IMG/VR virus record: IMGVR_UViG_3300008108_000037
Span: 4,002 to 68,001 of that record
Length of the DNA stretch: 64,000 bases
Reading direction: 5' to 3' (one strand)
Source of the DNA: a virus
Lineage: Duplodnaviria; Heunggongvirae; Uroviricota; Caudoviricetes
Shown here: piece by piece, positions 297-18,910 of the stretch
How positions within the stretch are numbered: position 1 is the first letter of the stretch
Layout: each line of letters opens with the position of its first letter
Translations under genes and position numbers: made by a program
Notes under the pieces: model-generated
What the model was told of the DNA's origin: nothing
Database searches by the model: none
The model's input: the letters and a program-made list of their open reading frames with translations, nothing else

Positions 297-297
297 G

Positions 298-1226: not shown

Positions 1227-1240
1227 AGGATAGATAGATT

Positions 1241-2675: not shown

Positions 2676-2886
2676 ATCTTTTATGGCTTGGATTTCGGGA
2701 GTGAAAGAAAAGCCGGTTGAACCCAAAGTCAAGAAAACCTTTCCTCCTCGAGATGCTAGTCTTTGCTCATTCAACGAATGGACAGAGATCACCCAATTCT
2801 CCTCGCTCTATGAACCCAATTTCAGGAACCAAGAAAGATTAGATCCCATCAAAAAAGAAGTGAGAGAAGCCAACAAGCATTTTTAA
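2656..2886 (+). CDS. hypothetical protein
   Basis: ORF track, overlaps upstream gene end. Confidence 0.55.
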   Translation: MKIMILKSFMAWISGVKEKPVEPKVKKTFPPRDASLCSFNEWTEITQFSSLYEPNFRNQERLDPIKKEVREANKHF

Positions 2887-2930
2887 CTTCAGCGGGGATT
2901 TATTAGATTTGCCTTATTTAACACACGACT

Positions 2931-3575
2931 ATGCACAACAAATCTCACAAACTCGATTCCGCTTCCTTCCGCACATTCATGTTTCAAGGTAAGGCATTCT
3001 TTACCCTGCACAACATCGAGAAGGACACCCACATCACATTCCGGATTCAAACACCCAAGCGTAAACGCGGCCAACCTGAAGAGACCCGTTACTTTGAGGT
3101 CTACGTCAAGGCTTTGAATGACAAGTACGCAGGCAACAAATATGTTGGACGCATTGACCGCAAGGAACGTTCCTTCAAACCATATGGTTATGTGGAGCGT
3201 GACCATGTTGGTATTCAAACTATTGAATGGTTGATTCGCAATTGGAGTCACTTGGAGGAATATGAGAAAGGAGAGAAGCTAGCAATCTATCACTTGGGCA
3301 CATGCTGTAAATGTGGATTACCTCTCACAGTCCCTGAAAGTATTCAAAATGGGATTGGACCACAATGCATGAAATATCGGGAGGGTAAATCCATTGACCT
3401 TCTTAAAGAGCTTGGCTTCTATAAGCCAGCAACCGAATATGCGGAGTTGGTCTATAATGCTCTTGAACTACGCCCGGATCTTTTCGATAAAATCTTTGTC
3501 CCTGATGTTATCCGTAGAGCTAACAAATGGTACAAGCTCATGGATAAACTGAGCAACGATATAGGTCTTTTCTAA
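2931..3575 (+). CDS. DUF6011-like Zn-finger protein
   Basis: CCKCGLPLTVPESIQNGIGPQC matches the CxxCGxxLTxPxSIxxGIGPxC pattern; ends DIGLF. Confidence 0.75.
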   Translation: MHNKSHKLDSASFRTFMFQGKAFFTLHNIEKDTHITFRIQTPKRKRGQPEETRYFEVYVKALNDKYAGNKYVGRIDRKERSFKPYGYVERDHVGIQTIEWLIRNWSHLEEYEKGEKLAIYHLGTCCKCGLPLTVPESIQNGIGPQCMKYREGKSIDLLKELGFYKPATEYAELVYNALELRPDLFDKIFVPDVIRRANKWYKLMDKLSNDIGLF

Positions 3576-3796
3576 AAGACAGTTTTCATAGGTACAACGA
3601 CCCTGGGTTTCTACCCGGGGTTTTTTGTGGAGTTAGGTAAAGTGAATTTTCTCGGACCGTCCGAGAATTCGGCGAGGCGCCCCGGCGAAGTTCAGGTGTT
3701 TTCAGGTGTTAACAGTCTTTACGGGTTGCATTTTTTTCCTCGAGGAAATTATTATAAATTGGACTTATTAAATTACTTACTAAACCCATTATCAAA

Positions 3797-4003
3797 ATGA
3801 CACACCAGTTTAACTTCTTTGAATCCCTAGATGGAAGGGAACTATTCCATTGGTTAGGTACACCATGTTTTATTTCAGATTACTACCAGAAAGAAAACGA
3901 TAATCTAGTTCAGATTACATCTTATGATGGTAGAGTATATGATGATGTCCCAGAGAGGGATTTGGAAAGTATGTCTCCTGAAGACATGGTAGGATTAGTT
4001 TAG
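3797..4003 (+). CDS. early hypothetical protein
   Basis: ORF between promoter and terminator. Confidence 0.75.
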   Translation: MTHQFNFFESLDGRELFHWLGTPCFISDYYQKENDNLVQITSYDGRVYDDVPERDLESMSPEDMVGLV

Positions 4004-4251
4004 ACTTTTTTCATAGGTTAGATCAAATACACCGGCCTGGGTTTCTACCCGGGCCTTTTTGTGTGGACCCATTTTGAACCAGGACTTTCACAGAGACTTC
4101 ACAGAGACTTCGCGGTGAGGCGCCCCTGCGGTTTTATTTGCATTCACACCCGGAACATAGCATAAGGTTTGGCGAGAAAAAAATTTTCAAAAACATTTTT
4201 TAATTTGGAGGTTTATTATTAATTTAGCCTCGTACTTAAAAAAACACGACT

Positions 4252-4518
4252 ATGTTACAAACTTCAACCCCGGGACCATCAATCCCACAAGCTTCAATCG
4301 AAGCTCTCAAAGAAAACCTTAAGAAGGGACCAGTTCGTTTCGCATTCCGTAAAAAGGATGGATCACTCAGATTAGCCTATGGAACTTTGGACATTAACAA
4401 AATTCCTTCCGCTAACCATCCAAAGGGTAATTCAGCTTCTCCTAAAATTCTTCCATTCTATGATTTGGAAAAATTCGCTTGGAGAAGCATTCAAATTGGT
4501 CAACTCGTTTTCAGTTAA
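4252..4518 (+). CDS. SH3 beta-barrel / WYL-like domain protein (DUF2693-like)
   Basis: LKKGPVRFAFRKKDGSLRLAYGTL...FYDLEKFAWRS pattern. Confidence 0.75.
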   Translation: MLQTSTPGPSIPQASIEALKENLKKGPVRFAFRKKDGSLRLAYGTLDINKIPSANHPKGNSASPKILPFYDLEKFAWRSIQIGQLVFS

Positions 4519-4741
4519 AAAGAGGAGTTAATAAATCAAGAGCCTGGGTTTCTACCCGGGCTTTTTTGTGGGGTAAGGTTTGGGAATTTTGCTAGCGTAT
4601 GTGAATCGAGACGAGGCGCCCCTACCGATACACATACGGATCAGGAACTGGGTCGAAACTTTTTTCCGAAACATTTTTGTCATTCGAGGATTTGTCATAC
4701 ATTAGCCTCATAAAACAATTTTTTAATCAAAAATCACACAC

Positions 4742-5176
4742 ATGAAATTAACTAAAGCGCAAGTTGAAGCTGTCGTTTCTGAAGTAAATGATCGTATCAA
4801 CAGAGCAACACAAAGCCAAATTCATCTTTTCAAAGGCAAGGATGAATGGGAAAAAATCAAGACAATAGTTAAAGAGTATCAAAATCTTGAGAAGAGCTTA
4901 GAGAAGGCCAAAGAAGCGGTAGAGAAGTTGGAAAGCGATTATGAGGACTTTGAAAGTGATGTTGAAGCAAGGATCCAAAGGTTTGAAAAGAAGTTCGGTG
5001 TGGATGTAGATTGGAAGTGGATTGAGGATAATGAGGAGCCCACTTTCAAAATGGAATTCAAAGATCTCACCCAGAAAATCGAAAGAACAGTTACCTTGCT
5101 GGGGATTGATAGTAAAGAAAAGATTACCAGTGATCTTCTAATTGAGAAGATGGTAGATAAGTTTTCAACTGTGTAG
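4742..5176 (+). CDS. coiled-coil early hypothetical protein
   Basis: ORF between promoter and terminator. Confidence 0.8.
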   Translation: MKLTKAQVEAVVSEVNDRINRATQSQIHLFKGKDEWEKIKTIVKEYQNLEKSLEKAKEAVEKLESDYEDFESDVEARIQRFEKKFGVDVDWKWIEDNEEPTFKMEFKDLTQKIERTVTLLGIDSKEKITSDLLIEKMVDKFSTV

Positions 5177-5382
5177 TAAATATAGATTTCAAAGATCCAA
5201 GGAGCCCAGATTTAGGTCTGGGTTTTTTGTGGGGTAAGGTTTGGTTTTTTCGGAGACGGCGTGAAGTAATACGATGAGGCGCCCCTACCCGCAATATTGG
5301 GATTCGATTCGTTAGATTTCTTTGAGGAAACATTTTATTTTTCCGTATAACTTTTATAGATTTACGGCATAAAATAAAACAT

Positions 5383-5613
5383 ATGCTTACTGAAGAACAA
5401 AGAGTAATCTTTAGAGAAATCTTAGATCTGAATTGGGAGTTTAGCCACACAGAAGAGAACTGGGGCGTTAAATGGGATATAGCCAGAAAACTCAATCAGA
5501 GAAAGAAAGATCTTAAAATGAGTATGGGTGAAGAAGCTTATGATCACTTCATGAACATGGGCAGGGAAATGTTCTCCCCGAGGAAAGAAGAAGTTGCCGA
5601 GGAGATTTCATAA
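5383..5613 (+). CDS. early hypothetical protein
   Basis: ORF with own promoter. Confidence 0.75.
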   Translation: MLTEEQRVIFREILDLNWEFSHTEENWGVKWDIARKLNQRKKDLKMSMGEEAYDHFMNMGREMFSPRKEEVAEEIS

Positions 5614-5670
5614 AAACATTTTTAATTTCAAGAGTAGTAAACTAAATTTGCAAACTAAAACGTAAACAAT

Positions 5671-5979
5671 ATGCCAAGGAGACCAAAGAAAGGAAAATCA
5701 TCAGATCTGTTGTTAAGAAAACTAATTGGTAAACTTGATCCGATCGAGACAACCCTCTTAAGAGAACGTATAGTTAGAATCTGTGAAATGAGCAAGCAGG
5801 ATATGTTAATGAATCCCGATAAGTATTCAAGGGGAATTATTGCTTCGCATTTGTTAGAAGCCTTTTATAATAAATGTTTAGCCCAGCTGAGTTATGAGAG
5901 CAGAGATTCTGCAGAGCGTGCACCATCCACTGTAACTGAGCCTGTGGTTGAAGAAAAAGAAGAGTTAGTGATTTCTTAG
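5671..5979 (+). CDS. early hypothetical protein
   Basis: ORF; TAAATTTG box upstream; terminator downstream. Confidence 0.75.
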   Translation: MPRRPKKGKSSDLLLRKLIGKLDPIETTLLRERIVRICEMSKQDMLMNPDKYSRGIIASHLLEAFYNKCLAQLSYESRDSAERAPSTVTEPVVEEKEELVIS

Positions 5980-6308
5980 TTTGTTTTTTGATTACAAGGG
6001 AAGCCGGGTTATTCCGGCTTTTTTTGTGGGGAGGGGTATCCCGGGAGACCCCGCACGCGTATGAGCGTGCGAAGTAGATATATAGTAACGACTCCTGAAT
6101 CCTTACCCTGACGAAAGCAAAAACCCGGACGTTTCTACGTTCGGGTTTTTTATTGTCCCAAACTTTTGATGTTACAACATCTGTCTGCGGGATGAGGCGC
6201 CCCTGCTAGTTAGATTGTTTTAAAACAACTTAACTATGGTTTTAATTTGGATAACATTTTTAATCCTTGAGGAATTTCGTTAATTTAGCCCTTCTAAAAT
6301 CAAAGATT

Positions 6309-6596
6309 ATGTTATTAGATGAAGAACCAGTGATAACGGAAGAAGAATTATCAGATGTCTCGATTGAAGATCTGCTTGGTTCATCATTAGTTGTCTATAA
6401 CGACGATGTAAACACTTTTGAATGGGTAATTGAGTGCCTTTGTAGCTATCTAAAGCATTCACGTGAACAAGCAGAACAATGTGCTTGGCTTATTCACACC
6501 AAAGGGAAATGCAAGGTTAAAAGCGGAACTAAAGAGGAATTAGAACCCTATAAAGATGCTCTCCTCGATTCTGGCTTGTCAGCAACGATCGAGTAG
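6309..6596 (+). CDS. clpS: ATP-dependent Clp protease adaptor ClpS (Bacteroidota type)
   Basis: LVVYNDDVNTFEWVIECL...QAEQCAWLIHTKGKCKVKSG signature; ATG 6309 preferred over TTG 6267. Confidence 0.9.
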   Translation: MLLDEEPVITEEELSDVSIEDLLGSSLVVYNDDVNTFEWVIECLCSYLKHSREQAEQCAWLIHTKGKCKVKSGTKEELEPYKDALLDSGLSATIE

Positions 6597-6648
6597 CATT
6601 TTTTTATCCAGAGGCAATTTAATAAATTTGCCTCATAAAATCAAATGT

Positions 6649-6831
6649 ATGGGAACAATTTTCAAAAATCTACTTCACAAAATCTCAGGCGATTCTAACC
6701 TCAACATTCCGTTGGTAGTTAGGGTTCGCAGGGTTCAAATGGAGCGCGAAGGCTTTAACACCGACCATATTAATTGGGAACATTACACCAAAGTATTGGA
6801 GGCCAAAGCTGAAGTGCTGAAACAACAATAA
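6649..6831 (+). CDS. early hypothetical protein
   Basis: ATG 6649 just after TAAATTTGCCTC promoter box. Confidence 0.7.
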   Translation: MGTIFKNLLHKISGDSNLNIPLVVRVRRVQMEREGFNTDHINWEHYTKVLEAKAEVLKQQ

Positions 6832-7067
6832 GTTTAAGTGGTTCTGGTTACATAAAGACCCTGGGTTTTACCCAGGGTTTTTTGTTGGGTAAAGTCTGGG
6901 TAAAACTGGATAAGCGCTGGGTAAAGTTGCTGCGGCGCCCCGGCAGAACCGCATGAACCTGATGTACCGGTTGTACCCGATGTACCGGATGTACCGGATG
7001 TTCAGTTCGCATTTTTTTATATCGGGGAGATTTCATAAATTGCCTTATAATTAAAAATACACACGAC

Positions 7068-7364
7068 ATGGAAAAATCAGTCACACTCAATTTCAGCCAC
7101 TTCATTTGTAAGGGCACTGCACAAATCACTCTTTGGGGTGGGGATCAAGGAACAATCACTATGGATTCATTCAGAATATCGGAAGGTTACACCGATGCGG
7201 ATCTTAAAGCTTGCCTGAACGATGGCGGGTTTGGTTGTGAATCTATTGATGGTGCGGTCATTGACATTTATGCAGTTTACAGTAACTATGAATCTCAAAC
7301 AACCCGTTGGTATGAAACAAGAGTTATTGGTAGAGTTAATGAAGAGTTGTTAATGGAAGCTTAG
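7068..7364 (+). CDS. early hypothetical protein
   Basis: ACACACGACATG leader; promoter and terminator. Confidence 0.8.
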   Translation: MEKSVTLNFSHFICKGTAQITLWGGDQGTITMDSFRISEGYTDADLKACLNDGGFGCESIDGAVIDIYAVYSNYESQTTRWYETRVIGRVNEELLMEA

Positions 7365-7507
7365 GTTTGGTTATGGTTAGTTGATGAGCTTGGACTTAGG
7401 TCCAAGCTTTTTTTGTGGGGTATTGAAGAAAGCCACACGCTAGCGTGCATCGGTTGCGGCGCCCCGACCGATAACAGCTACACGCTAGCTTTTGAATACA
7501 TATAGTT

Positions 7508-7690
7508 ATGAAACACATCCGAATCTTTGAAGAGTTTGAAAATGAAGGTGAATACATTCCTCCGATACAAATAGAGTGTAATAAATGTGGATGGAATTGG
7601 AACTCCACCGAAACCAATCCCAAAGACCTGTATATCTGTCACAAGTGTGGAGCGGATAATAAGGATTTTTACAAACCGGAAGAAGAGTAG
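7508..7690 (+). CDS. Zn-ribbon protein with capsid-targeting-like N-terminus
   Basis: MKHIRIFE; CxxC...CxxC; flanked by 14-bp direct repeats. Confidence 0.75.
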   Translation: MKHIRIFEEFENEGEYIPPIQIECNKCGWNWNSTETNPKDLYICHKCGADNKDFYKPEEE

Positions 7691-7802
7691 TTGCGGCGCC
7701 CCGGCGGTTGGATACAGGACAATGCCCTATACTTTTTTTCTTGCGGCATTTTTTCTTTTCGCCTTTTTATATTACTTTTATGTCATACTAAACAACACGA
7801 CT

Positions 7803-8177
7803 ATGACAGATCAAGAACAATTCGAGCATCTCAAGAAAGAGATAAAGAACCTCAACGGAAAAATCTTTATCTCATTCGTTCATCCAGGACTTTATGGTCC
7901 ACTCAGAAATCTCAACTTCATTTTAGAAAACCCAGATCCGGTAGAACTAAACAAGTATCTTAAGGAAGGCTGGCACAGAATAGTTGAAGATATTTGGAAA
8001 GAAACCCTAATGGCAACTCAACCTATGGTCATGCCTTGGGAAATGACTTTAACTGCTGAAAAAACCCCAAAGGTTTTCAAAACAATTAAAGATGCTGAAA
8101 CCCATATTAGGCATTTACTTAAGACCGGAATTAGTATGACTCAAGATCCTTTCTATTACAGATTAGGAATTCACTAA
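7803..8177 (+). CDS. early hypothetical protein
   Basis: ACACGACTATG leader at 7803 inside the longer ORF-track call. Confidence 0.8.
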   Translation: MTDQEQFEHLKKEIKNLNGKIFISFVHPGLYGPLRNLNFILENPDPVELNKYLKEGWHRIVEDIWKETLMATQPMVMPWEMTLTAEKTPKVFKTIKDAETHIRHLLKTGISMTQDPFYYRLGIH

Positions 8178-8460
8178 CCTCAAAACTTTAAACCCTTGGA
8201 AAAACATCCAAGGGTTTTTTGTGGGGTAAGGTTTGGGAAATTCGCTAGCGGATGTGAAACGGGATGGGGCGCCTCAGCAAGTATACATCAGATCTACACA
8301 TTTTCAGGAAGGGGTATCCGGGGAGACCCCGCCCGCGTACGTGCGCTGCGAGGCGCCTCGGCAAAGTCAACCTATGGTTTACCTATGGTCTATTCCTTTT
8401 TGAGGCATTTTTTTGTTTTACCCCAATTGATTATATTTGGGATAACTAATACATCTTTAT

Positions 8461-8652
8461 ATGACACAAGAAAAAGACCCATTAATTGGAAAAAGAATTA
8501 AACTAATTAGAATGGACGATCCTTTCCCGGTTGAACCAGGTTCCGAAGGAACTATAGAATCAATTGATGGGATGGGACAGATTTGGGTACATTGGGATAA
8601 TGGAAGAGGTTTAGCCATTATACCGGGTACGGATGAGTATGAAATAGTTTAA
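8461..8652 (+). CDS. DUF4314-like protein
   Basis: RIKLIRMDDPFPVEPGSEGTIESIDGMGQIWVHWDNGRGLAIIPGTD pattern. Confidence 0.8.
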   Translation: MTQEKDPLIGKRIKLIRMDDPFPVEPGSEGTIESIDGMGQIWVHWDNGRGLAIIPGTDEYEIV

Positions 8653-8925
8653 GTGTGTTGAAGTCTTTTGTTTAAAAGTTTAAACAAAAGATTAAACGAG
8701 CCTGCAGAGGCTCGTTTTTTTTTGTGGGGTAGTATTCCAAACCTCAAAAAATAGCTACACGCTAGGTTTTGAAGCTGAGGCGCCCCGACTGGAAAAAACC
8801 AAAAAACCCACTTTATCCAGAAAAGGCGCCCCTGCGGTATAGAGGCGGACAAAAACTTTTTTCGTGGGCATTTTTTTATTTCGCCTCTTTATAGTATATT
8901 TACACCATAATCAAATATCACACAC

Positions 8926-9237
8926 ATGACAACATCAATTAAAAAAGCAAGCAACTCAGCTCTCTCAAACGGAACATCTTTTCACGGACACGTTTTCAGG
9001 GCAACACCCCAACAACTCACTGACCTTTTTGGACCAGCCCATTATTCAGCTAATGATGGCGAGGACAAAAGCAATTTTGATTGGACAATGTTATTGGGCG
9101 AGGAAGTTCCGTTTACAATTTATGATTGGAAAGAATACCGCACATTAAAAATGAATGAAAAGGTGGAATGGCATATTGGGGCTAAAGACCCTTTTTTTGC
9201 AGGTTTGGCTTTATCTGAAGTAATCAAGCTTTTATAG
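8926..9237 (+). CDS. early hypothetical protein
   Basis: FTIYDWKEY/WHIG phage-type motif; cassette context. Confidence 0.8.
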   Translation: MTTSIKKASNSALSNGTSFHGHVFRATPQQLTDLFGPAHYSANDGEDKSNFDWTMLLGEEVPFTIYDWKEYRTLKMNEKVEWHIGAKDPFFAGLALSEVIKLL

Positions 9238-9435
9238 GAACAGAGGAATTTAGAAACCCGGATCTTTTTAAGGTCCGGGTTTTTTGTGGGCTAAGGTTTG
9301 GGAATTTTCTCGGACCGTCCTAAAATCTGGCGAGGCGCCCCGGCCGGTATGCAAACTTTTTGCATACTTTCCAAATTGCATTTTTTTCTTTCGGGGAGAT
9401 TTATTAATTTAGCCTCATAATCAAACACACACACT

Positions 9436-9840
9436 ATGTCACATTTTCAAGTTACCCTCGGACAACAAATTTCAGCTTTCATCAACGAAGGCAAGATCAT
9501 TGGAGATTACGAGCACTGCTCAGGCTTCTATGATTGGTTCTGTTCAGACCGCGCATTAGAGGCCAAAGCCAAATCACTAATGCCTAAGGTTATCAAATTC
9601 GTTAAGGCCAAAGGAATCGACCCTAACCGCCATTACGTGTGGTTCAAAAACAACTGTCCCATTAACGGACCTTTGTATGATGATTTCCGTATTGCCTCGC
9701 TAGAGACCGGAGATAATGTGTTCTGTGTTACACCCAAATCCGGACACACCGACAGAGCAGAAGTTTACGGCCAGGAGAATCTTTGGAACGGGCCAATCCA
9801 TCAGGCTAACACCTGGACAGAACTAATAAGAGCAATTTAA
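9436..9840 (+). CDS. early hypothetical protein
   Basis: YDWFC...FKNNCP...LYDDFRI; cassette context. Confidence 0.85.
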   Translation: MSHFQVTLGQQISAFINEGKIIGDYEHCSGFYDWFCSDRALEAKAKSLMPKVIKFVKAKGIDPNRHYVWFKNNCPINGPLYDDFRIASLETGDNVFCVTPKSGHTDRAEVYGQENLWNGPIHQANTWTELIRAI

Positions 9841-10038
9841 TTTTTCATAGATAGGTTGATGTTTTTAAAGGCCTGGGATTTTATCCCAGGTTTTTTTGTG
9901 GGGTAAGGTTTAGGAAATTTGCTAGCGTATGTGAATCGAGACGAGGCGCCCCAGCATGTATGCATGTGAGCTGCACACTTGCATTTTTTATTATCGGGGA
10001 AATTTTATAATTTTACCTCACACTTAAATCACACAAGC

Positions 10039-10224
10039 ATGCAAGCAAACTTAGAAATTGAAATCCCAGAGGATTTCATCACAGCAGGAAAAGAACTAGC
10101 TCTTTCAGATGCAAGGATCCAAGAGATCTTTGAAGGATGGTTACACCTTATAATTTATGAAAGGATTATTCCTGATTATCTAGAAGATATGATACAGGAT
10201 TTACCTGAGGAAGTGAAGGAGTAA
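10039..10224 (+). CDS. early hypothetical protein
   Basis: ATG 10039 after CACACAAGC leader. Confidence 0.7.
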   Translation: MQANLEIEIPEDFITAGKELALSDARIQEIFEGWLHLIIYERIIPDYLEDMIQDLPEEVKE

Positions 10225-10566
10225 GTATTTAAGATCCCGGGATTCACATCTCGGGATTTTTTGTGGGGTAAGGTTTGGAAAAAGCTAGCGTGTAGCTGAA
10301 AACTGTTGCGGCGCCCCAGCAAGTATGCATCAGGTTTGCATACTTAACTTCTCTTGCATTCGGGGGATACCCGGGAGACCCCGCGCTCGTGCGAGAGAAA
10401 AAAGAGTGAATCAACCAAAATCGATGATCGATCGATTCAAATCGTTGCGGCGCCCCTGCAGGTTAATCCATTTTTAGACATTATTATAACCTGAGGGTAT
10501 TTCGGGGTACATTTTTCTTTTTGCCCCGGATTTCATATATTTACATCATAATTAAAAACATACACC

Positions 10567-10746
10567 ATGAGCAAAAGGGATTTAATCGATCTAACCAAAC
10601 AATTTCTCCGTCAAGAGGGCATCACAGATGACTCTTACATCATTTCATTACAAGGACCTACCTTTATCTTCACTTCAGGAATAAAGTTAGCTACGGGCAT
10701 TAAAAAGAAGTTAAAAGAAGCTGGTGTGTTGGTTATGGGAGGATAA
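10567..10746 (+). CDS. early hypothetical protein (59 aa)
   Basis: Read manually: MSKRDLIDLTKQFLRQEGITDD...; promoter, ACACCATG leader and terminator. Confidence 0.7.
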   Translation: MSKRDLIDLTKQFLRQEGITDDSYIISLQGPTFIFTSGIKLATGIKKKLKEAGVLVMGG

Positions 10747-11078
10747 GTTTATCCTTCCGAAAAAGAAAAAACCTGGGAGACCAGGTTTTTTTGTGGGGTA
10801 AGGTTTGGGAAAGAATCAAAAAATGGATTATCATTCAGAGGCGCCCCGACTGGAAAAAACCAAAAATTGGGTTTTATCTAAATAAGGCGCCCCTGCGGTA
10901 AAAACCAAAAAAAACCAATTTTTCCAAATGAGGCGCCCCGGCGGTTTGCAAATCCAAGGATTTCTGGGGTTATAATGTTGGAAAAGTTAAAGTCGTGTTA
11001 GAACGAATAACAATTTCAATTGCATTTTTTTGTTTCGAGGAAAATCTCTAATTTAGCCTCATTAAAACATCACACACC

Positions 11079-11309
11079 ATGAAAAAATTCTTACAAACCA
11101 CAGCATCTTGGTCATTCCTCTTATTTGGAATCCTTACCATTTTAATTCTTTGCGCCGAACCACCCACTGGCCCAGCAGATGAACCTTATATTGAGCATGC
11201 AATGTTTGTCAAAACCTGGGGTGGGATAATTCTCGGAACCTGGATTGGCTTAATAGTCACTGCTGTGACCTGTGGATCCATTTTAAGGTTTAAATATGAA
11301 GATGACTAA
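11079..11309 (+). CDS. early membrane protein
   Basis: Two hydrophobic segments; cassette context. Confidence 0.75.
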   Translation: MKKFLQTTASWSFLLFGILTILILCAEPPTGPADEPYIEHAMFVKTWGGIILGTWIGLIVTAVTCGSILRFKYEDD

Positions 11310-11367
11310 AGCATTTTTTCCCTTCGGGGAAATTTATTAATTTAGCCTCGTACTTAAACAACATCCC

Positions 11368-11496
11368 ATGAAAGCACCCTTTAGATTAACCTGTAAAGGA
11401 GGCGTCTACGAAGCAGACACCTTCTTCTCCCTCGTCATAGAAGTTCTTAAACACCGATTTTGGCATTTAAGAACTCACGGTAAATGGATAGACTAA
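11368..11496 (+). CDS. early hypothetical protein (42 aa)
   Basis: Read manually: MKAPFRLTCKGGVYEADTFFSLVIEVLKHRFWHLRTHGKWID; own promoter and terminator. Confidence 0.7.
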   Translation: MKAPFRLTCKGGVYEADTFFSLVIEVLKHRFWHLRTHGKWID

Positions 11497-11748
11497 TTTC
11501 TTCCCCCCGTTTCTCAAACCAGACCTAGTGTCTGGTTTTTTTGTGGGGTGGGGAACCCGGGGAGACCCCGCACGCGTACGAGGGTTTTTGAGGCGCCCCA
11601 ACCAAGAGAGCTAAAAAACCAAATTGCATGCATGCATAGGAATAGGCGCCCCTGCCCGCTTGCACATCTTTCACACATCTTTTTTCCCCTGCATTTTTCT
11701 TTCTCGAGGAAAAGTCTTAATTTAGCCTCATCATTAAATAACCACACT

Positions 11749-11925
11749 ATGTTAAAAGAACAATTCAACCGAGTAATCGAAATCTACCAATCTCTAGATG
11801 GAATCGAACAAGCCGCCTTCTCCTTTTGGAGTTTATGTGTAGCTGCATTTTATGGTACACTGGTTTACATTTTGTATTTAATAGGAAAAGAAGGGATAGA
11901 AAAATTAAGGAGAAGTAGAAGTTAA
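11749..11925 (+). CDS. early membrane protein
   Basis: CACACTATG start at 11749; one TM. Confidence 0.7.
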   Translation: MLKEQFNRVIEIYQSLDGIEQAAFSFWSLCVAAFYGTLVYILYLIGKEGIEKLRRSRS

Positions 11926-12227
11926 TTCACACAAGTATTCATTCATTTTAAAAAAGTCCCAATGGGACTTTTTTTGTGGGGTAAGGTTTGGGAAAAGTGA
12001 AAAGTTAGGATTATCATTCCGAGGCGCCCCGACTGGAAAAAACCAAAAAACCAAGTTTAACTTGAAAAGGCGCCCCTGCTGGAAAAAACCAAAAAACCCA
12101 ATTTTTCAAAATGAGGCGCCCCTGCCCGCTAGCCATTCGCTAATGGCACTTGTAACATTTTCTCTCGGCATTTTTTCTTTTCGCCTCTTTACATTACTTT
12201 TACCCTATCAATCAAAAATCACACACA

Positions 12228-12446
12228 ATGAACACAGCACTTAAAATGATTCTCGCCGGAGTATCCACCGCCATCCTTCTTATTCTCATGCTTTGGAAGG
12301 GATTTGAAAACGCTCCCATTTTCGAAAGCGTAGCAGCTGAGATAACCTTCGCTTCCATTCTTTTCGTCGCCACCATGCTATTCACCCTTGGGGGTATTAG
12401 AGAGTTATACCATAACTCCTATGGGAAGCGACCCCAAAAATTTTAA
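12228..12446 (+). CDS. early membrane protein
   Basis: Two TMs; CACACACAATG leader. Confidence 0.75.
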   Translation: MNTALKMILAGVSTAILLILMLWKGFENAPIFESVAAEITFASILFVATMLFTLGGIRELYHNSYGKRPQKF

Positions 12447-12448
12447 CC

Positions 12449-12748
12449 ATGGATTGTCAGTTGTGTAAGTATAAGAGAGATGAACCCGGCACGCCTTATG
12501 TGCGTTGCCGGGCCATCAAAGAACATCCCGCTTTCCACAAGCTCTCCATAGATGAAAAGGGAGCGTTAGAGTTAGGCGTGTCAGCCACAGGAAGGTTTCC
12601 TTATCTCACCAAAGACAACAAACCACTGATTGAGATTCATAAAGGTCCAGACTGCTTCTGGCCCACATCATATGATCCGGCAGATATTGGAGATTGCCAC
12701 TTCATGAAGCTCCGCCCAGATGCTGTCTCTTGGGAGAGGATAAAATAA
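12449..12748 (+). CDS. Cys-rich hypothetical protein
   Basis: CxxC...C...FWPxxYDP...C phage-type motif. Confidence 0.75.
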   Translation: MDCQLCKYKRDEPGTPYVRCRAIKEHPAFHKLSIDEKGALELGVSATGRFPYLTKDNKPLIEIHKGPDCFWPTSYDPADIGDCHFMKLRPDAVSWERIK

Positions 12749-12814
12749 TCCTCAATAACATTTTTTTCTTTTGGAGGTGTTTATTAATTTACATGCACAC
12801 TAAAACACTTTCCC

Positions 12815-13042
12815 ATGTTAATTCATCTTCCCTCTGTCGCTTCTTTCATCGACACCTCAGACGCCTTAGTTTACGCCGCTTACCAAAACGGTAACGTGGA
12901 TCACGATTCCGCCACCTCTATAGCAGACTGTTCAGAGGTCTGGTTTTCTTTGCTCTCTCACCGAGACGCTGAGATAGTGGAGATCGTGGAAAGATATCTA
13001 CAGCTGAACATCAGCTTTCTAGTTAGAGGACTCGCAAATTAA
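12815..13042 (+). CDS. early hypothetical protein
   Basis: ORF with own promoter. Confidence 0.7.
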   Translation: MLIHLPSVASFIDTSDALVYAAYQNGNVDHDSATSIADCSEVWFSLLSHRDAEIVEIVERYLQLNISFLVRGLAN

Positions 13043-13224
13043 TGTCCAGTACAGCATAATCTTATGAACGGAATTTCTTACATTTGCCTCTCAATACAAA
13101 CAAAAGACTTTAAAGAATAGTTCATAGGTGTGTTAGTAAGTGTAACTCTCCCTTCGGGGAGAGTTTTTTTTGTGGGGTGAACCAGAAGGGTCAAAAACGG
13201 TGACCGCTTTTGACTGCGCGGCGA

Positions 13225-13519
13225 GGCGCCCCGGATAGAAAAACCCAAAAATTGGATTTTATCTAAATAAGGCGCCCCTGCTGGATTTTTTTAAATTTTT
13301 GGTTTTTCCAAAAAGGGCGCCCCTGCTGAAAAAACCCAAAAACCCTAGTTTTTCCAAATAAGGCGCCCCTGCCGCAAAACCTCTCTATTCTTTCTATCAG
13401 CGGTGCCCCTGCATGGAAGTTTAATTTGGATTTCTTGCATTATCCAAATAGGGCGCCCCTGCCGGGAAACCTTTTTTTGGCTTTTTTAGGTTTTTTGGAT
13501 TTAACCCCTGGGGCACCCC
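13225..13519 (+). repeat. tandem array of 7 GG(C/T)(G/A)CCCC(T)GC units with A/T-tract spacers
   Basis: Unit spacings 46,45,46,40,50,60 bp. Confidence 0.9.
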
Positions 13520-13554
13520 TGCCGGCTAACTCTTTCTAGAAATGCCATTTATGG

Positions 13555-13745
13555 GGATGGCCAGGGGGCTTAAAAGAGGGTGTTTTTTAGGGGGCCAAAA
13601 AAGGGGTGTTTTAAGGGGGGTAAAATAAGGGGGACGGTACCCCCTAGGCTCCCCCCGTTTTTAGGGGGGGTTTTGGGCCCATTTAGGACCCCTTTTTAAG
13701 GGGGGCCGTATATGCCTTGTTTTACTATATTTTGGGGGAGGGGTG
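13555..13745 (+). other. G-run/A-T-run tract with G-quadruplex potential
   Basis: G3-G7 runs starting 13564,13578,13590,13603,13615,13629,13664,13700. Confidence 0.75.
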
Positions 13746-13838
13746 CCTTGTGGATTGGAGAGATGAAATATAGAGCTGGGATTAGTCGTGGGGGTCCCTT
13801 CTTTCTTCTCGTTTTTCTTTTGCAGTAGAAATAGCTCC

Positions 13839-13972
13839 TACCAATGCGCGTACGCACACTTAATAACGGTCATACTATGACGCAATTTTATAATTTAAGT
13901 ACGACACGATTTTATAATTTTAATACGGCCACGCGCACGTATATTAGTAATACCAATGCGCGTACGCACACT
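13839..13972 (+). repeat. 22-bp perfect direct repeat TACCAATGCGCGTACGCACACT enclosing an AT-rich core
   Basis: 13839-13860 and 13951-13972; ATTTTATAATTT at 13885 and 13909 between them. Confidence 0.95.
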
Positions 13973-13999
13973 GGATATCCCTCCATTTGGAGGGACAGA

Positions 14000-14048
14000 G
14001 TGGGATTTCTTTATAAATCGACCGGGCCAGTGTGGGCTTTCTTTATAA
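14000..14048 (+). repeat. 17-bp direct repeat GTGGG(A/C)TTTCTTTATAA
   Basis: 14000-14016 and 14032-14048. Confidence 0.85.
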
Positions 14049-14125
14049 GTGGATAAGGATGGACCTTATATCAGGTGGTAGTTTCCCTAGGGGTTTGGAA
14101 TATATAGGGTAAATAATATTCGATT

Positions 14126-14473
14126 ATGAGACACCTACGTATCTTTGAATCCCACACTGAGCAGTTGCAAGAAGCAACCCCGCCCAAAACAGAGTCCAAG
14201 GAATCCATTCAGAACAAGAGAATGGCTAATTTCTTTAACAAGCTCTACAAGATGAATCTGCCTCTAGATGGCAATGGGAAAAACCCAGAGTACATCAAAG
14301 CTTTCACTCGTTACTGTGGAGAAAAGAAGATTACCACCCATATCTGTAAAAAGGGAGATGGCTTCTGTTCTGATCTTCAAGCTGGAGAAATCACCGTCAA
14401 AGATGCCCAGATGCGAGCAAAATTTGAGAGGAGTGTGAAAAACAATGCTCTTGCCCTCCTAATGAAACCTTAA
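14126..14473 (+). CDS. putative internal head protein
   Basis: MRHLRIFE N-terminus; GAATATATAG box upstream. Confidence 0.75.
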   Translation: MRHLRIFESHTEQLQEATPPKTESKESIQNKRMANFFNKLYKMNLPLDGNGKNPEYIKAFTRYCGEKKITTHICKKGDGFCSDLQAGEITVKDAQMRAKFERSVKNNALALLMKP

Positions 14474-14527
14474 GGGTGAACTAAGATTTTCTAAGAACCA
14501 GACCTAGCGTCTGGTTTTTTGTGAGGT

Positions 14528-15079
14528 TTACTCCGTGAAGTAAGTGTTTCTGAAGTATCTGAGAGGACGGGCAATCGAAGTGTCTCTTAGATGTATAACA
14601 GTCATATCCCTTTCAAATCTACGTTGGGTGATCCAACCTTTAATTCTTTGAATGTCTTTGTTGTACCATCCTCCCACATCGGGTGGTAATTCGAGATCTC
14701 CGTTAATCCTGAGGACTTGCTCCTCCACGCTCTCCACACGGCCTAAGACCTCTTGACAGAGAGCTATGACCTCTTCAGAGGGAAAGGAGGTTAAGCTTCC
14801 TTTGTGCCACATTCTGTCTGGATCTGTGTCAAACACGATGTGCTCTCTCAGCTCTTGTAGGGGTATTTCGAACTCCACTATCCATTCCCCATAGATGACT
14901 TTGTTGGGATCTAGAAAGGCACCCATTCCAGCTCCTTCTGCACTGGCTCCCTTTCTTTGGCTCTCATCCCAGCCGGATTTGAGGATAGTCTGGGCATCTT
15001 CCTCGGATCTTGTCCCGTGGTAGATCTTTAAACCTCTCCGAGAGAGCAGGAAGGCTTCAAATAGTTGGAGATGTCTCAT
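14528..15079 (-). CDS. putative ADP-ribosyltransferase-fold internal head protein
   Basis: MRHLQLFE N-terminus then LKIYHGT...ILKSGW...GAGMG..; YHGT motif typical of H-Y-E ARTs. Confidence 0.55.
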   Translation of the reverse strand: MRHLQLFEAFLLSRRGLKIYHGTRSEEDAQTILKSGWDESQRKGASAEGAGMGAFLDPNKVIYGEWIVEFEIPLQELREHIVFDTDPDRMWHKGSLTSFPSEEVIALCQEVLGRVESVEEQVLRINGDLELPPDVGGWYNKDIQRIKGWITQRRFERDMTVIHLRDTSIARPLRYFRNTYFTE

Positions 15080-15157
15080 ATGCTTTATATATTATAGATC
15101 ATGGAGATTGTTACCTTTCCTCCTCTTTGGGCTATAAGAGGTAAATAAAAGAATCTC

Positions 15158-15697
15158 ATGAAACAACTCTTTTTCAAGCTCCGCAATTGGCTCTATAAAG
15201 ACAGCCGACTCACTATCCGTAAAAAGGCTGACAGTATGCCTGATGGAGGATTGAATAATCCTTTCACTGTGAACATGCTTACCTTCAGTCCCCCTGCCAC
15301 TCAGACCAAAGTGCTCTCTAAGGCCCATGAGGAGACTTCCCTCTCTGGCACCTATGGTCTGAATCCCTGGGACATCTTTAATCCTTTTAAGACCAACACT
15401 AACATTGTGTGGCTGATGATGTACCAACAGGGATTGATTAAAGATGTCACTGCTGAGATCGTGCATCCCAAAATGGGCAGTAGCTTTGCTGTGACAGTCA
15501 ATAATCCTCAGGTGGGCACTCCCTATGCTGTGTTCTATAACTCTCCCATGGAGCTGGCCATTCCTTCTCCTCTAGTGGGTCATCGAGTGGATCTGAATGA
15601 AAACGGTAAAGCTTTCTGGATGAGTGAGAAAGGCATTCAAGTGGAGGTGCAACGTTTACAGGACTCTGATTGCAAGGAGTTCTTAGTTATCCTTTAA
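15158..15697 (+). CDS. hypothetical protein
   Basis: ORF track. Confidence 0.75.
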   Translation: MKQLFFKLRNWLYKDSRLTIRKKADSMPDGGLNNPFTVNMLTFSPPATQTKVLSKAHEETSLSGTYGLNPWDIFNPFKTNTNIVWLMMYQQGLIKDVTAEIVHPKMGSSFAVTVNNPQVGTPYAVFYNSPMELAIPSPLVGHRVDLNENGKAFWMSEKGIQVEVQRLQDSDCKEFLVIL

Positions 15698-15708
15698 AGA
15701 TATGTTCC

Positions 15709-16368
15709 ATGCAGATTAGTTACACTAAATCCGGCATTTTAGGAGGGGATGGTGTGGTTTTTTATAATCCACTCTATGATGGGGGAGGAACCACCATCGG
15801 ATATGATATGTGCAAGCATCCATCCATCCTAAAACACCTCTCCAATATAAACAACACTTTGGAGATATGCTCCGGTCCCGGATTTATTGGCTTCTATTTG
15901 TTATTTAACGGTCTAACAAAAAAATTATGGCTATCCGATAAATTTGACGGTGTGCTGCCGGATATTCTCAAAACAAATGCATTCAATCAGGTAGATGTGA
16001 AATTTATTCATTCAGATTGTTTTCAAAATTTTGAAAAGTCCTTAAAATTTGATTTGATAATCAGTAACCCTCCCCATGTCCAACATGATATGGAATGGAT
16101 TAGAGACAGAAAGACCGAGGAGGAAAAACACGCAAGTTATAGAATTAATCTTGATGAGGATCTAAAATTCCATCGGGAATTCTTTGAAAATGTCAAGAAT
16201 CATCTCAATCCCGGAGGCAAAGTAATATTGGTCGAAAACCAAACATACATAAGCTATGCAACCATTATGGATCTAGCAGGATCTGGATTTGAGTGTGAGG
16301 TTATAAATGGGGTATATGCCGAGAAGAATTTTTATTATATCGTCCTGACTCTAGGTACCAGAGATTAA
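15709..16368 (+). CDS. class I SAM-dependent methyltransferase (PrmC/HemK-like)
   Basis: LEICSGPGFIG motif I; FDLIISNPPH motif IV; ATG 15709. Confidence 0.85.
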   Translation: MQISYTKSGILGGDGVVFYNPLYDGGGTTIGYDMCKHPSILKHLSNINNTLEICSGPGFIGFYLLFNGLTKKLWLSDKFDGVLPDILKTNAFNQVDVKFIHSDCFQNFEKSLKFDLIISNPPHVQHDMEWIRDRKTEEEKHASYRINLDEDLKFHREFFENVKNHLNPGGKVILVENQTYISYATIMDLAGSGFECEVINGVYAEKNFYYIVLTLGTRD

Positions 16369-16490
16369 TAAAGAGCTTCCTTCTCAGCCCGGGCCTAGTG
16401 TCTGGGTTTTTTTATGTGCTAGGGGGCCTTGGGGCCTTGACGGCTCGGATGTCACGGGATCAGCATAGAGGAGGGATCGATATATAAATC

Positions 16491-17686: not shown

Positions 17687-18910
17687 ATGAAAAGAATTAA
17701 ACTATTTGAAGCCTGGGTACATGCACAGGCTTTGAACGAAGCAGCCCCTTTTGGAAAGTTAGATCTTTCCCTGTTTGATCAAGCGATGGCAGCTCGAGAT
17801 TTTGTAAAGGAGGAGAAACTGAACGAGGATCAAAATATGAGATATGAAGCCCTTAAAGCCATCTTGAAAAACAATGGGGTTATTTTTTCGATCCCCGTTG
17901 AAGATGCCGCACTGATCCTCGCAAATTACTGGATTTTTGGAGCGCCCCAGATTGGCTCTATGCTACCCGAAGCGAAGAGGTGGTTCGCCAAAGATGTGAA
18001 CTCACCAATTAAGCTAAATCCCTCTCCTGCGGATCCCACTAAAATTCTTACCAAAGGTGTTTTCACCGAGGATGAAATAATCGATCCGGGTGATGAATCT
18101 GCATCCTCGGATTACAATGAGATTGCTTTGTATTGTAATAATGCCTCTTTGATTCTCGTTGCACAATATCTAAAAGACAAAATGGGGGATAACACTAAAG
18201 TAGGTACTCCCACTCTCGGAAGTCTTAGACTAAGCATAGACGAGGATGCTGGTTATGTAAATTGGAAAAGAGAAGCCAATGGTCTTGATTTCATATTTTA
18301 TGGAACATCCTCAACCACGCAGGCTCAATCTAAACAGACTGTAACCACTCTCACTTGGGAGGTTCCAGATACCGGAAAAACAATTGTTAAGCAATTACCT
18401 GGTACAATGTTTGCCACAGGCCAGGTTACTCTAACTGATGCTAAAGAATTGGATGCAGCCATTGCGGAATTAAAAGCTCTATTAGCTGATAAAAGTACCG
18501 TACTTGGATCAATTGAAATTGAATCCAGTGCATCTGGTGATCGCCCAACCGGAGATAATCAAAGCGGATATCCTGCTGGCACTACACCTGGAAAGTATTC
18601 TCTTGGCACACCATATGTCGTGAAGACAGGAGAGACCTCGGGAAATGCAAAATTAGCACTTGGCAGGGGAGAAACAATTAAAGCAAAGTTAGCTGGCTTA
18701 AGCAATGACATTAAGGTTAAAGCCGTTATTCAAGACGGAGGTGATAAAGCTCAATATGCTAAACTTATCGTCACGGCTAAAAAAGCAGGAGGAGCCAGTG
18801 AAGTTTACACCAAAGACGAATTAAAAAATCTGGTATTAAAAACTAAACAAACAAAAGACTTAGCTTCATCTAACACTCTTACTGTGTGGGAGGCTAGGCT
18901 TCGTTGGTAA
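17687..18910 (+). CDS. putative virion protein with C-terminal OmpA-like domain
   Basis: MKRIKLFE...LNE N-terminus; FATG...IEIESSAS...NAKLALGRGETI resembles OmpA_C. Confidence 0.7.
   Translation: MKRIKLFEAWVHAQALNEAAPFGKLDLSLFDQAMAARDFVKEEKLNEDQNMRYEALKAILKNNGVIFSIPVEDAALILANYWIFGAPQIGSMLPEAKRWFAKDVNSPIKLNPSPADPTKILTKGVFTEDEIIDPGDESASSDYNEIALYCNNASLILVAQYLKDKMGDNTKVGTPTLGSLRLSIDEDAGYVNWKREANGLDFIFYGTSSTTQAQSKQTVTTLTWEVPDTGKTIVKQLPGTMFATGQVTLTDAKELDAAIAELKALLADKSTVLGSIEIESSASGDRPTGDNQSGYPAGTTPGKYSLGTPYVVKTGETSGNAKLALGRGETIKAKLAGLSNDIKVKAVIQDGGDKAQYAKLIVTAKKAGGASEVYTKDELKNLVLKTKQTKDLASSNTLTVWEARLRW

What the first reader, a model, noticed from the sequence alone, without database searches (positions are those of the whole stretch)
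13200..14100. 0.9-kb multi-layered non-coding boundary: candidate origin, terminus or injection-stop signal
Seen in order: the 7-unit motif array, a G-run tract, a 22-bp perfect direct repeat (13839/13951) enclosing an AT-rich core with ATTTTATAATTT twice, a CCCTCC/GGAGGG hairpin (13979-13994) and a 17-bp repeat (14000/14032). It lies exactly where early cassettes stop and late-type genes begin. Known: iterons plus an AT-rich unwinding element define origins, and phage T5 has a repeat/palindrome-rich injection-stop signal at the end of its first-transferred pre-early region. Inference: this element is an origin, a terminal-repeat junction/pac site or a two-step DNA-transfer stop.
Basis: partly seen in the sequence, partly recalled or inferred. 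Interest (0 to 1): 0.8.

Follow-up and report, generated by a model that had tools for sequence, protein, structure and literature searches.

The report
Conserved border element of phage early block
This gene-free 0.9 kb is a real, single-copy DNA signal, shared by a group of uncultured giant freshwater phages, that closes their 20-kb block of early genes; it most likely marks the inner edge of a long terminal repeat, where the packaged chromosome ends, but no test here shows that.

Summary
The stretch is also conserved. The same order of parts follows the last early terminator in at least four other phage species (L137, G002, G003, G004):
- 5-9 species-specific GC boxes
- a G-run/A-run tract with the G runs on the + strand
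- an invariant core
- two 21-nt boxes around 24-nt TTATAAT units
- a hairpin
- short tandem repeats

The genes downstream differ between species. The element occurs once in 132 kb and once in 245 kb. A second conserved non-coding element closes the left side of the early block.

The genomes are transcribed almost entirely in one direction. GC skew does not change at the site. I found no DnaA-box cluster, no Rfam match and no RNA covariation.

Early-block proteins occur in about 1.4-2.8 times as many assemblies as flanking genes. That hints at double copy number but does not prove it. Read coverage could not be obtained.

Best reading (0.4): the inner border of a long terminal repeat or first-entering segment, working like T5 Repeat Region 3. 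Rivals are a transcription-primed origin, a regulatory insulator, or an injection stop alone.

Other first readers in this scan noted the GGCGCCCC gradient and the G-run tract on this same DNA.

The parts
13144..13178 (+). Terminator hairpin of the last early cassette, followed by the TTTTTTTTGTGGGGT tail found after every early terminator
   Evidence: The same tail is present in relatives L137, G002 and G003.
13225..13522 (+). Array of 7 GC-box units (GGCGCCCC(T)GC) separated by phased A/T-tract spacers. It is the same box that sits about 47 nt after each early terminator, but here no early promoter follows.
   Evidence: Relatives have 5-9 units of a diverged box at the same place: L137 GGGGGAACCCTCAC, G002 GG[TC]GCCCTCATC, G003/G004 GGGGTGCCCCCAC.
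13553..13703 (+). G-run/A-run tract with a period of about 12-13 nt. It includes the small hairpins G5ACGGTAC5 and C6GTTTTTAG7. The G runs lie on the + strand.
   Evidence: The strand bias is kept in all five species (6-13 G4+ runs against 2-5 C4+ runs). The tract's length varies between species.
13704..13826 (+). Invariant block: AAGGGGGGCCGTATA, AAATATAGA, GGGGGTCCC, then a 27-nt polypyrimidine run ending in GTTTTTCTTTTGCAG
   Evidence: Alignments of 5 to 18 sequences. RNAalifold finds no covariation. The block is retained in deletion variant L119.
13836..13860 (+). Box 1: CTACCAATGCGCGTACGCACA, holding the palindrome GCGTACGC
   Evidence: The core ATGCGCGTACGC is invariant in all 16 sequences.
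13866..13882 (+). Optional palindrome/hairpin (GTCAT-ACT-ATGAC). L137 has TTGCCAT-ACT-ATGGCAA, the G003 group has CGTCAT-ATTC-ATGACG, and several relatives lack it.
   Evidence: There is one clade-level compensatory change.
13876..13947 (+). Three 24-nt tandem units beginning TACG. Two carry TTATAAT(TTAAG), which resembles the -7 box of this phage's early promoters. The third carries CGCGCACGTATA.
   Evidence: Relatives show a different number of these units: L187 has one more than the rest.
13948..13972 (+). Box 2, a direct repeat of box 1
13979..13994 (+). Hairpin CCCTCC-ATTT-GGAGGG. Relatives have TATCC-ATTC-GGATA at the same place.
   Evidence: The stem sequence differs between clades while pairing is kept. 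Some variants break the outer pairs.
13992..14055 (+). 32-nt tandem unit (GGGAYWGWGTGGGMTTTCTTTATAA...), with 1 or 2 copies in the population. Relatives carry other short tandem repeats here: CAGATCCCCTTATT about 6 times, GGATCACA 4 times.
14097..14128 (+). Late-type promoter GGAATATATAGGG and the start of the first late gene (its product begins MRHLRIFE)
   Evidence: The consensus (T)GATATATAA(A/G) lies upstream of many MKHL..FE genes.

Best explanation
The stretch is the conserved right-hand border of the roughly 20-kb early (host-takeover) gene block of a clade of uncultured freshwater jumbo phages. Their hosts are probably Bacteroidota. It acts as DNA, not as a gene or a folded RNA.

Most likely the early block together with its two border elements forms a long direct terminal repeat, and is the segment that enters the cell first. 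On that reading 13200-13826 (GC-box array, G-run tract, invariant block) is the inner edge of the repeat. That is where the packaging machinery sets the right end of the chromosome, and where DNA entry or early transcription stops during infection.

The box / TTATAAT / box module (13836-13972) would then be a separate accessory control module at the start of the unique region.

Shown here: the anatomy, single copy, conservation of order and of core sequence across species, a partner element at the left border, near-unidirectional genomes, and over-representation of early-block genes in assemblies.

Inferred, not shown: that the block is duplicated at the genome ends, where any cut falls, and any pause in DNA entry.
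For: 1. Conservation. The same order of layers follows the last early terminator in L137, G002, G003 and G004 and in about 13 distinct metagenome sequences. The next gene differs between species: late gene, early-type gene, or a minus-strand gene.

2. Single copy. The element occurs once in 132 kb and once in 245 kb. The GC box occurs only in the early block and its two borders.

3. Left partner. The left border is a second conserved non-coding element: 600 nt at 67% identity between this lineage and G003, with CGCCCCGTA three times, AAGTGG four times, and 4-6 GC boxes.

4. Unidirectional genome. About 90% of G002 genes are on the + strand, and the early block reads the same way. CBB is a jumbo phage with the same layout: a 22,456-bp terminal repeat holding 51 small ORFs, host-type promoters in the repeat, a T4-like late motif, and only 34 of 554 ORFs on the minus strand (PMC5259590).

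5. Parallel in T5. T5 has a 1.2-1.7-kb untranslated region full of repeats and palindromes at the right end of its terminal repeat. It is conserved while neighbouring ORFs are not (bioRxiv 10.1101/866236).

6. Copy-number proxy. Exact early-block proteins are indexed in 111-143 assembly blocks, against 46, 88 and 91 for flanking genes. Clusters at 90% identity sit on a median of about 57 contigs, against about 29 on the right flank and 35 on the left.

7. Contig starts. Six of 15 relatives' contigs start 8-134 nt upstream of GTTTTTCTTTT, just after the G tract.
Against:
- The contig-count excess is modest and confounded. Cassette sharing between phages, detection thresholds and fragmentation could each contribute.
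- All 20 contigs of this species cross the site without a break. This is expected under a terminal repeat, but it is uninformative.
- The contig starts in relatives are spread over about 130 nt. Poor sequencing through G runs could explain them.
- One natural variant (L119) lacks 13825-14059, so that module is not essential.
- The major capsid protein is closest to Lak, Tenacibaculum and Flavobacterium jumbo phages. It is only marginally similar to XacN1 and not to the Rak2-like group. I found no report of genome ends for those closer relatives, so the parallel with CBB is by analogy, not shown kinship.
- The early block has no T5 A1/A2-like proteins and the border has no DnaA boxes.
Confidence: 0.4

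Rival explanations
1. A replication origin primed by transcription. Promoter-like TTATAAT units, or a CTTTCTA(G/T)A element ahead of the G tract, would drive an RNA. That RNA would form a stable R-loop or G-quadruplex over the G-rich non-template strand and the polypurine/polypyrimidine run. The AT-rich 24-nt units between the two boxes would then unwind. The GC-box array would play the part of iterons. This would work like the T7 primary origin, T4 oriF/oriG, ColE1 or mitochondrial CSBII.
For: - The site is single-copy and conserved in a large non-coding gap.
- Direct-repeat arrays lie next to an AT-rich repeat flanked by palindromes.
- The strongest G4 propensity of the record lies here, with strand bias conserved in five species.
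- A 27-nt polypyrimidine run is invariant.
- Loss of the box module in one strain is tolerable if origins are redundant, as in T4.
Against: - GC skew shows no inflection here, and cumulative skew rises monotonically over 245 kb.
- There is no DnaA-box cluster.
- No initiator gene was recognised next to it.
- The same GC box precedes every early promoter and also forms the left border, which iterons of an origin would not be expected to do.
- The early genes read head-on into the site.
- The TTATAAT units lack the upstream half of the early promoter.
Confidence: 0.2
2. A transcriptional insulator and switch with no role in DNA ends or replication. The GC-box array and G tract would stop or absorb read-through from the early block. 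The two palindromic boxes would be operators for a phage DNA-binding protein. That protein would control TTATAAT promoters that make a short non-coding transcript or feed the first downstream gene.
For: - The element sits exactly between host-type early cassettes and late-promoter genes.
- The boxes are invariant 21-nt direct repeats with a dyad core, about 100-112 nt apart.
- The TTATAAT(TTAG) units resemble the -7 box of this phage's early promoters; ATTTTATAATTT is the -7 box of the promoter at 10002.
- A hairpin with a covarying stem follows box 2.
- The module is dispensable in L119.
Against: - The downstream gene is not conserved, and in G002 it points the other way, so there is no constant regulated target.
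- There is no Rfam match and no covariation for a structured RNA.
- This reading does not explain the partner element at the left border, or why early-block genes are over-represented in assemblies.
Confidence: 0.2
3. An injection-stop signal only. The genome would have short or no terminal repeats and start at the left border. DNA entry would pause at the G-run/GC-box region until early proteins are made, as in T5 two-step transfer.
For: - About 6-7% of a roughly 300-kb unidirectional genome lies left of the site. All of that part is early genes reading inward.
- The site is a conserved, repeat- and palindrome-rich untranslated region, like the T5 iss region.
- The G tract could form unusual DNA structures.
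Against: - There are no homologues of T5 A1/A2 and no DnaA boxes.
- The mechanism of the T5 stop is itself unknown, so the resemblance rests on layout only.
- Nothing here measures DNA entry.
Confidence: 0.12
4. A by-product with no function of its own: spacer units of the cassette array piled up by unequal crossing-over at the end of the block.
For: - The array units are the same 45-46-nt spacer unit seen in clusters of 2 and 3 further left.
- Copy numbers of short repeats vary between strains.
Against: - The order of layers and about 270 nt of core sequence are kept across species whose neighbouring proteins are only 50-75% identical.
- The core has no copy elsewhere in the genome.
Confidence: 0.05

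Closest known systems
[quoted passage not shown]
   Same: Both are gene-free stretches of about 1-1.7 kb at the downstream end of the first-expressed gene block. Both are packed with direct repeats (nine DRD copies in T5), inverted repeats and palindromes. Both are conserved among relatives while adjacent ORFs are not. The T5 region straddles the end of the terminal repeat.
   Different: There is no sequence similarity and no paired DnaA boxes. The early block has no A1, A2 or dmp homologues. Here there is a strand-biased G-run tract, and a GC box that also precedes every early promoter. Terminal-repeat status and two-step entry are unproven here.
Long direct terminal repeats of jumbo phages: vB_PcaM_CBB (22,456 bp, 51 ORFs; PMC5259590) and XacN1 (66 kb; PMC5852040)
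   Same: The early block is about 20-22 kb and holds about 48 small ORFs with host-type promoters. The genome is almost entirely transcribed in one direction. The late motif is T4-like. The genome is about 300 kb.
   Different: The CBB repeat was called from doubled read depth and PFGE, and no such data exist here. Capsid similarity to this group is marginal (XacN1 24.5% over 44% of the protein). The papers I read do not describe border elements like this one.
T7 ends: short-repeat arrays SRL and SRR beside the 160-bp terminal repeat, and the primary origin made of two tandem promoters plus an AT-rich region just after the early genes (own knowledge, not checked here)
   Same: Arrays of short direct repeats lie next to a terminal repeat. 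Tandem promoter-like units with AT-rich DNA sit right after the early region of a unidirectional genome.
   Different: The scale, the sequences and the polymerase system differ. T7 has no G-run tract. The resemblance comes from memory and was not tested.
PeSL-type early cassettes of T4-like phages
   Same: The array units are the spacer units of a promoter-gene-terminator cassette array.
   Different: The border element is single-copy, non-coding and conserved, and it lies outside the cassettes. PeSL elements do not include such a terminal structure.

Membership tests
T5-type iss / Repeat Region 3 | Large untranslated, repeat- and palindrome-rich region at the downstream end of the pre-early gene block, conserved while neighbouring ORFs vary | tested here: met
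   description of T5
T5-type iss / Repeat Region 3 | Eight DnaA boxes in pairs within inverted repeats | tested here: not met
   0-2 boxes (at most 1 mismatch) per 1.2 kb in five species, and none conserved. The record's background is 0.5 per kb.
T5-type iss / Repeat Region 3 | A1/A2 (and dmp) genes in the first-transferred block | tested here: not met
   A PHROGs scan of ten early proteins returned only families of unknown function and one weak 'ATP-dependent protease' match (ClpS-like protein); none annotated as T5 A1, A2 or dmp. Not every early ORF was scanned.
T5-type iss / Repeat Region 3 | DNA entry stops at the site until early proteins are made | not testable with these tools
   Needs infection experiments
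Inner boundary of a long direct terminal repeat (CBB / XacN1 / SPO1 / T5 kind) | Twofold read depth over the block, with read ends piling up at its borders | not testable with these tools
The proxy gives 111-143 assembly blocks for early proteins against 46-91 for flanks and median contig counts of 57 against 29 and 35. This is suggestive only.
Inner boundary of a long direct terminal repeat (CBB / XacN1 / SPO1 / T5 kind) | The block holds the early or host-takeover genes with host-type promoters, in a non-permuted, largely unidirectional genome | tested here: inconclusive
   Early cassettes and near-unidirectional coding are shown. Non-permutation is not shown.
Iteron-type origin (lambda or plasmid kind) | Direct repeats for an initiator next to an AT-rich unwinding region, with the initiator gene at or beside the site | tested here: inconclusive
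   Repeats and AT-rich units are present. However, the same box is spread over 20 kb and both borders, and no initiator was recognised nearby.
Bidirectional chromosomal-type origin | GC-skew inflection and a DnaA-box cluster | tested here: not met
Known structured RNA family | Match to an Rfam model, or covariation supporting a fold | tested here: not met
   No match reached its gathering score. RNAalifold covariation terms were -0.03 and +0.79 kcal/mol, with no or few compensatory pairs.

The most novel reading that the evidence does not exclude
The strand-biased G-run/A-run tract would be an active DNA-structure device, either a G-quadruplex or an R-loop former, placed at the end of the first-entering segment. 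Together with a phage protein bound to the GC boxes it would physically halt DNA entry or transcription. Alternatively it would cap the chromosome end in a telomere-like way, since the G-rich strand runs 5' to 3' towards the putative right terminus. That would be a mechanism not described for any phage.
Probability: 0.12. Interest if true: 0.85.

Novelty: new variant of a known kind. Interest (0 to 1): 0.55.

Why it matters
Large virulent phages must control which DNA enters first, which genes fire first and where the chromosome is cut. The signals for this are known in only a few model phages, and even the T5 stop signal remains unexplained after fifty years.

This element gives an independent natural example in an uncultured clade of giant phages. 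Its sub-parts are clearly separable: a species-specific GC box that evolves in concert across some 30 sites, a conserved G tract, and invariant boxes. Natural deletion and copy-number variants already exist.

If the terminal-repeat reading holds, it also fixes the true ends and orientation of these genomes. That matters for judging the completeness of metagenome-assembled giant phages.

Tried and rejected
Searches for relatives or matches:
- Near-identity search of 12000-15500 against deposited phages: no match.
- Distant search of the core against the same collection: no match.
- Relatives through the 115-aa neighbour: none.
- Paired-GGCGCCCC pattern in IMG/VR: only chance hits in GC-rich phages and a streptococcal surface protein, L077.
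- The relative found through the 232-aa gene (L110/G001) is not syntenic and has no GGCGCCCC.
- The L119 deletion junction was not found in IMG/VR.

Terminase and genome ends of relatives:
- Terminase Pfam models PF03237 and PF17289 found nothing in G000-G003, so terminase typing was dropped.
- The PTm1 record starts inside its structural genes, so it says nothing about ends.
- The MA9V-1 paper says nothing on termini.

RNA readings:
- Rfam at a permissive threshold gave only sub-threshold noise.
- RNAalifold on the core and on the invariant block found no covariation.

Other:
- Comparison of the left and right borders found only the shared GC box and 9-11-nt chance-level words.
- ORFs 13844-14056 (+) and 13696-13857 (-) were rejected as genes. 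The 32-nt indel and 1-3-nt indels between species break their frames.

Full report
**Setting**

The window is bases 4002-68001 of a 132-kb IMG/VR phage record that CheckV rates as 40% complete, which implies a genome of about 300 kb.

Upstream of the finding lies a row of small + strand genes. Each has the same anatomy:
- a terminator hairpin followed by TTTTTTGTGGGGTAAGGTTTGGG;
- about 47 nt later, a GC box, (G)A-GGCGCCCC-NGC;
- 40-100 nt further on, a promoter of the form (T)GCATTTTTTT, then 19 nt, then TAATTTAG(CC), followed by CACACAC-ATG.

The -7 box resembles the Bacteroidota TAnnTTTG type. That resemblance is from my own knowledge of the consensus.

Downstream genes carry (T)GATATATAA(A/G) just before the start codon, and many of their products begin MKHL..FE. 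The finding therefore sits exactly between host-type early cassettes and late-type genes.

**The observation**

All the layers are present.

GC box:
- With at most one mismatch it occurs 25 times in the window against 0.13 expected.
- It occurs 27 times in the 132-kb record, all within the first 17.5 kb and 26 on the + strand.
- After the last early terminator (13144-13165) come seven units with A/T-tract spacers, and no early promoter follows.

G-run tract (13553-13795):
- It holds ten runs of at least five G or C in one 500-nt bin, against at most three in any other bin.
- It is the G4Hunter maximum of the record, about five standard deviations above the mean.

Other parts:
- The 22-nt repeat contains the palindrome GCGTACGC, which occurs nowhere else in the 132 kb.
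- Between its two copies lie three 24-nt tandem units. Two of them carry ATTTTATAATTT, which is also the -7 element of the early promoter at 10002.
- The '17-bp repeat' is a 32-nt tandem unit.

**Population variants**

Twenty independent contigs cross the stretch without a break. They come from JGI, ENA and NCBI assemblies of the same phage species, at about 99.9% identity. Thirteen distinct versions exist:
- 13200-13825 is nearly invariant, apart from 1-nt changes in homopolymer runs.
- The 32-nt unit is present once or twice.
- Two contigs replace 14010-14122.
- One contig (L119) lacks 13825-14059, which removes both boxes, the AT-rich units, the hairpin and the 32-nt units. L119 carries four other clean short deletions at 99.9% identity and contains no N. 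The deletion is probably real, but I found its junction nowhere else.

**Relatives**

Homologues of the 407-aa protein at 17687-18910 form a graded series.

The contig of a 75%-identical homologue (L137) shows the same order of layers after its last early terminator:
- five GC boxes of a different sequence (GGGGGAACCCTCAC) with A/T-tract spacers;
- a G-run/A-run tract;
- a core about 80% identical to the window;
- two boxes around TTATAAT units;
- a hairpin;
- a different short tandem repeat.

A pattern built from the two boxes found three IMG/VR records with the same architecture:
- G002, 245 kb and 86% complete
- G003, 111 kb
- G004, 40 kb

A pattern from the invariant block found 15 metagenome contigs.

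Alignments of 5 to 18 sequences show these invariant blocks:
- AAGGGGGGCCGTATA
- AAATATAGA
- GGGGGTCCC, then a polypyrimidine run ending in GTTTTTCTTTTGCAG
- CTACC(A/T)ATGCGCGTACGC, twice
- TTATAAT, twice
- CGCGCA

The GC boxes differ by species but are clearly one diverging motif, GG(Y)GCCC(Y)(Y)(R)(Y). They are uniform within each genome.

The gene after the element differs between species: a late gene in the window and G004, an early-type gene in L137 and G003, and a minus-strand gene in G002. The element is thus tied to the end of the early block, not to a downstream gene.

**The other border**

Walking left through longer contigs shows that the early block starts about 20 kb upstream. It begins at another 1.2-kb non-coding stretch with 5-6 same-strand GC boxes and G/C runs. 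Beyond that lie larger genes in mixed orientation.

G003 has the same layout: a left cluster, a 22-kb early block, then the right array and core.

The left border is itself conserved between the two lineages, with 600 nt at 67% identity. It contains CGCCCCGTA three times plus an inverted copy, and AAGTGG four times.

The two borders share only the GC box.

**Tests of the three proposed functions**

Origin:
- GC skew is positive throughout and does not change at the site.
- In G002 the cumulative skew rises monotonically over 245 kb, and about 90% of coding is on the + strand.
- There is no conserved DnaA-box cluster.
- No initiator was recognised nearby.
- The supposed iterons are spread over the whole early block and both borders.
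- Features that would suit a transcription-primed origin remain: a G-rich non-template strand, a polypurine/polypyrimidine run, and AT-rich repeats between palindromes.

RNA gene:
- There is no Rfam match.
- There is no covariation.
- Only the two small hairpins show clade-level compensatory changes, and some variants break them.

Terminal repeat:
- Direct read data could not be had.
- As a proxy I counted assemblies carrying exact proteins. Four early-block proteins are indexed in 130, 143, 111 and 129 blocks. Genes just outside are indexed in 91 (left), 46 and 88 (right).
- Clusters at 90% identity sit on a median of about 57 contigs for the block, against 29 for the right flank and 35 for the left.
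- The excess lies in short contigs. Doubled depth would produce that pattern, but cassette sharing between phages could produce it too.
- Six of the 15 relatives' contigs begin 8-134 nt upstream of GTTTTTCTTTT, two of them at the same base. This could reflect an end, or poor sequencing through the G runs.

**Comparison with known systems**

T5 has a 1.2-1.7-kb untranslated region full of repeats and palindromes at the right end of its terminal repeat. It holds the injection stop signal and is conserved where neighbouring ORFs are not. The layout matches. The defining DnaA-box pairs and the A1/A2 genes are absent here.

The jumbo phage CBB has a 22,456-bp terminal repeat with 51 ORFs, called from doubled read depth. 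It has host-type promoters in the repeat, a T4-like late motif and only 34 of 554 ORFs on the minus strand. XacN1 has 66-kb repeats. The organisation here is strikingly similar.

However, the capsid protein of this clade is nearest to an uncultured 462-kb phage (44%), the Lak phages (39%), and Tenacibaculum, Flavobacterium, Chryseobacterium and Sphingomonas PAU jumbo phages (26-32%). XacN1 appears only as a partial 24.5% match. The parallel is therefore an analogy.

No deposited phage genome holds the core.

**Verdict**

This is a conserved, single-copy, multi-part cis element that closes the early block, and it has a partner at the other end.

I rank the readings as follows:
- Inner edge of a long terminal repeat or first-entering segment, working like T5 Repeat Region 3: 0.4. 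Within this reading the box/TTATAAT module is a separable, dispensable control module.
- Transcription-primed origin: 0.2
- Pure transcriptional insulator or switch: 0.2
- Injection stop without a long repeat: 0.12
- Functionless pile-up of spacer units: 0.05

Read depth over the two borders would settle the main question.

Noticed in passing
L132:800-2030; L136:10560-11800; G003 about 102.4-103.8 kb (reverse strand): The left border of the early block is a second conserved non-coding element of about 1.2 kb. It has TCGCCCCGTA three times plus an inverted copy, AAGTGG four times, G/C-run hairpins and 4-6 same-strand GC boxes. Several contigs of this species end or carry a scaffold gap within it.
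   Followed up: partly
L143, L149-L152, L154, L155, L157, L162, L165 (IMG/VR contigs, GC about 54%): An unrelated, GC-richer phage group carries two GCGCGTACGC boxes exactly 113 nt apart around a conserved spacer (GGCCGCATGGCTGGCCGTTAAGAATCGGCCC...). It may be an analogous two-box element.
   Followed up: no
window 1-13200 (early promoters): Early promoters have a fixed form: CATTTTT, then 19 nt, then TAATTTAG. The -7 box resembles the Bacteroidota TAnnTTTG type. Together with capsid relatives that infect Bacteroidota, this points to a Bacteroidota host.
   Followed up: partly
L119 (JGI 3300008113 Ga0114346_1010744) against window 5685-5751, 6147-6200, 8722-8788, 13825-14059, 17713-17800: One strain differs from the window by five clean deletions of 54-235 nt at 99.9% identity elsewhere. 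Three of them fall in early-block spacers.
   Followed up: partly
window 58188-59828: A 546-aa Ro60-related RNA-binding protein is 49% identical over its full length to gp540 of Bacillus phage G.
   Followed up: no
L124/L125 (ENA GROS21 scaffolds) against window 14010-16400: A sub-lineage replaces the right end of the element and the 115-aa gene start with a 122-aa form. It also carries a 263-aa gene where the window has the methyltransferase-like 232-aa gene.
   Followed up: no
window 13523-13552 and the same position in relatives: A short conserved CTTTCTA(G/T)A(A/T) element lies between the last GC box and the first G run. It reads TATAAT in G004 and could be a promoter reading into the G tract.
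   Followed up: no
G002:C1:1-244850: About 90% of the coding sequence of this 245-kb relative is on one strand, and GC skew is positive in almost every 10-kb bin. The GC box occurs only in the first 750 bases.
   Followed up: yes
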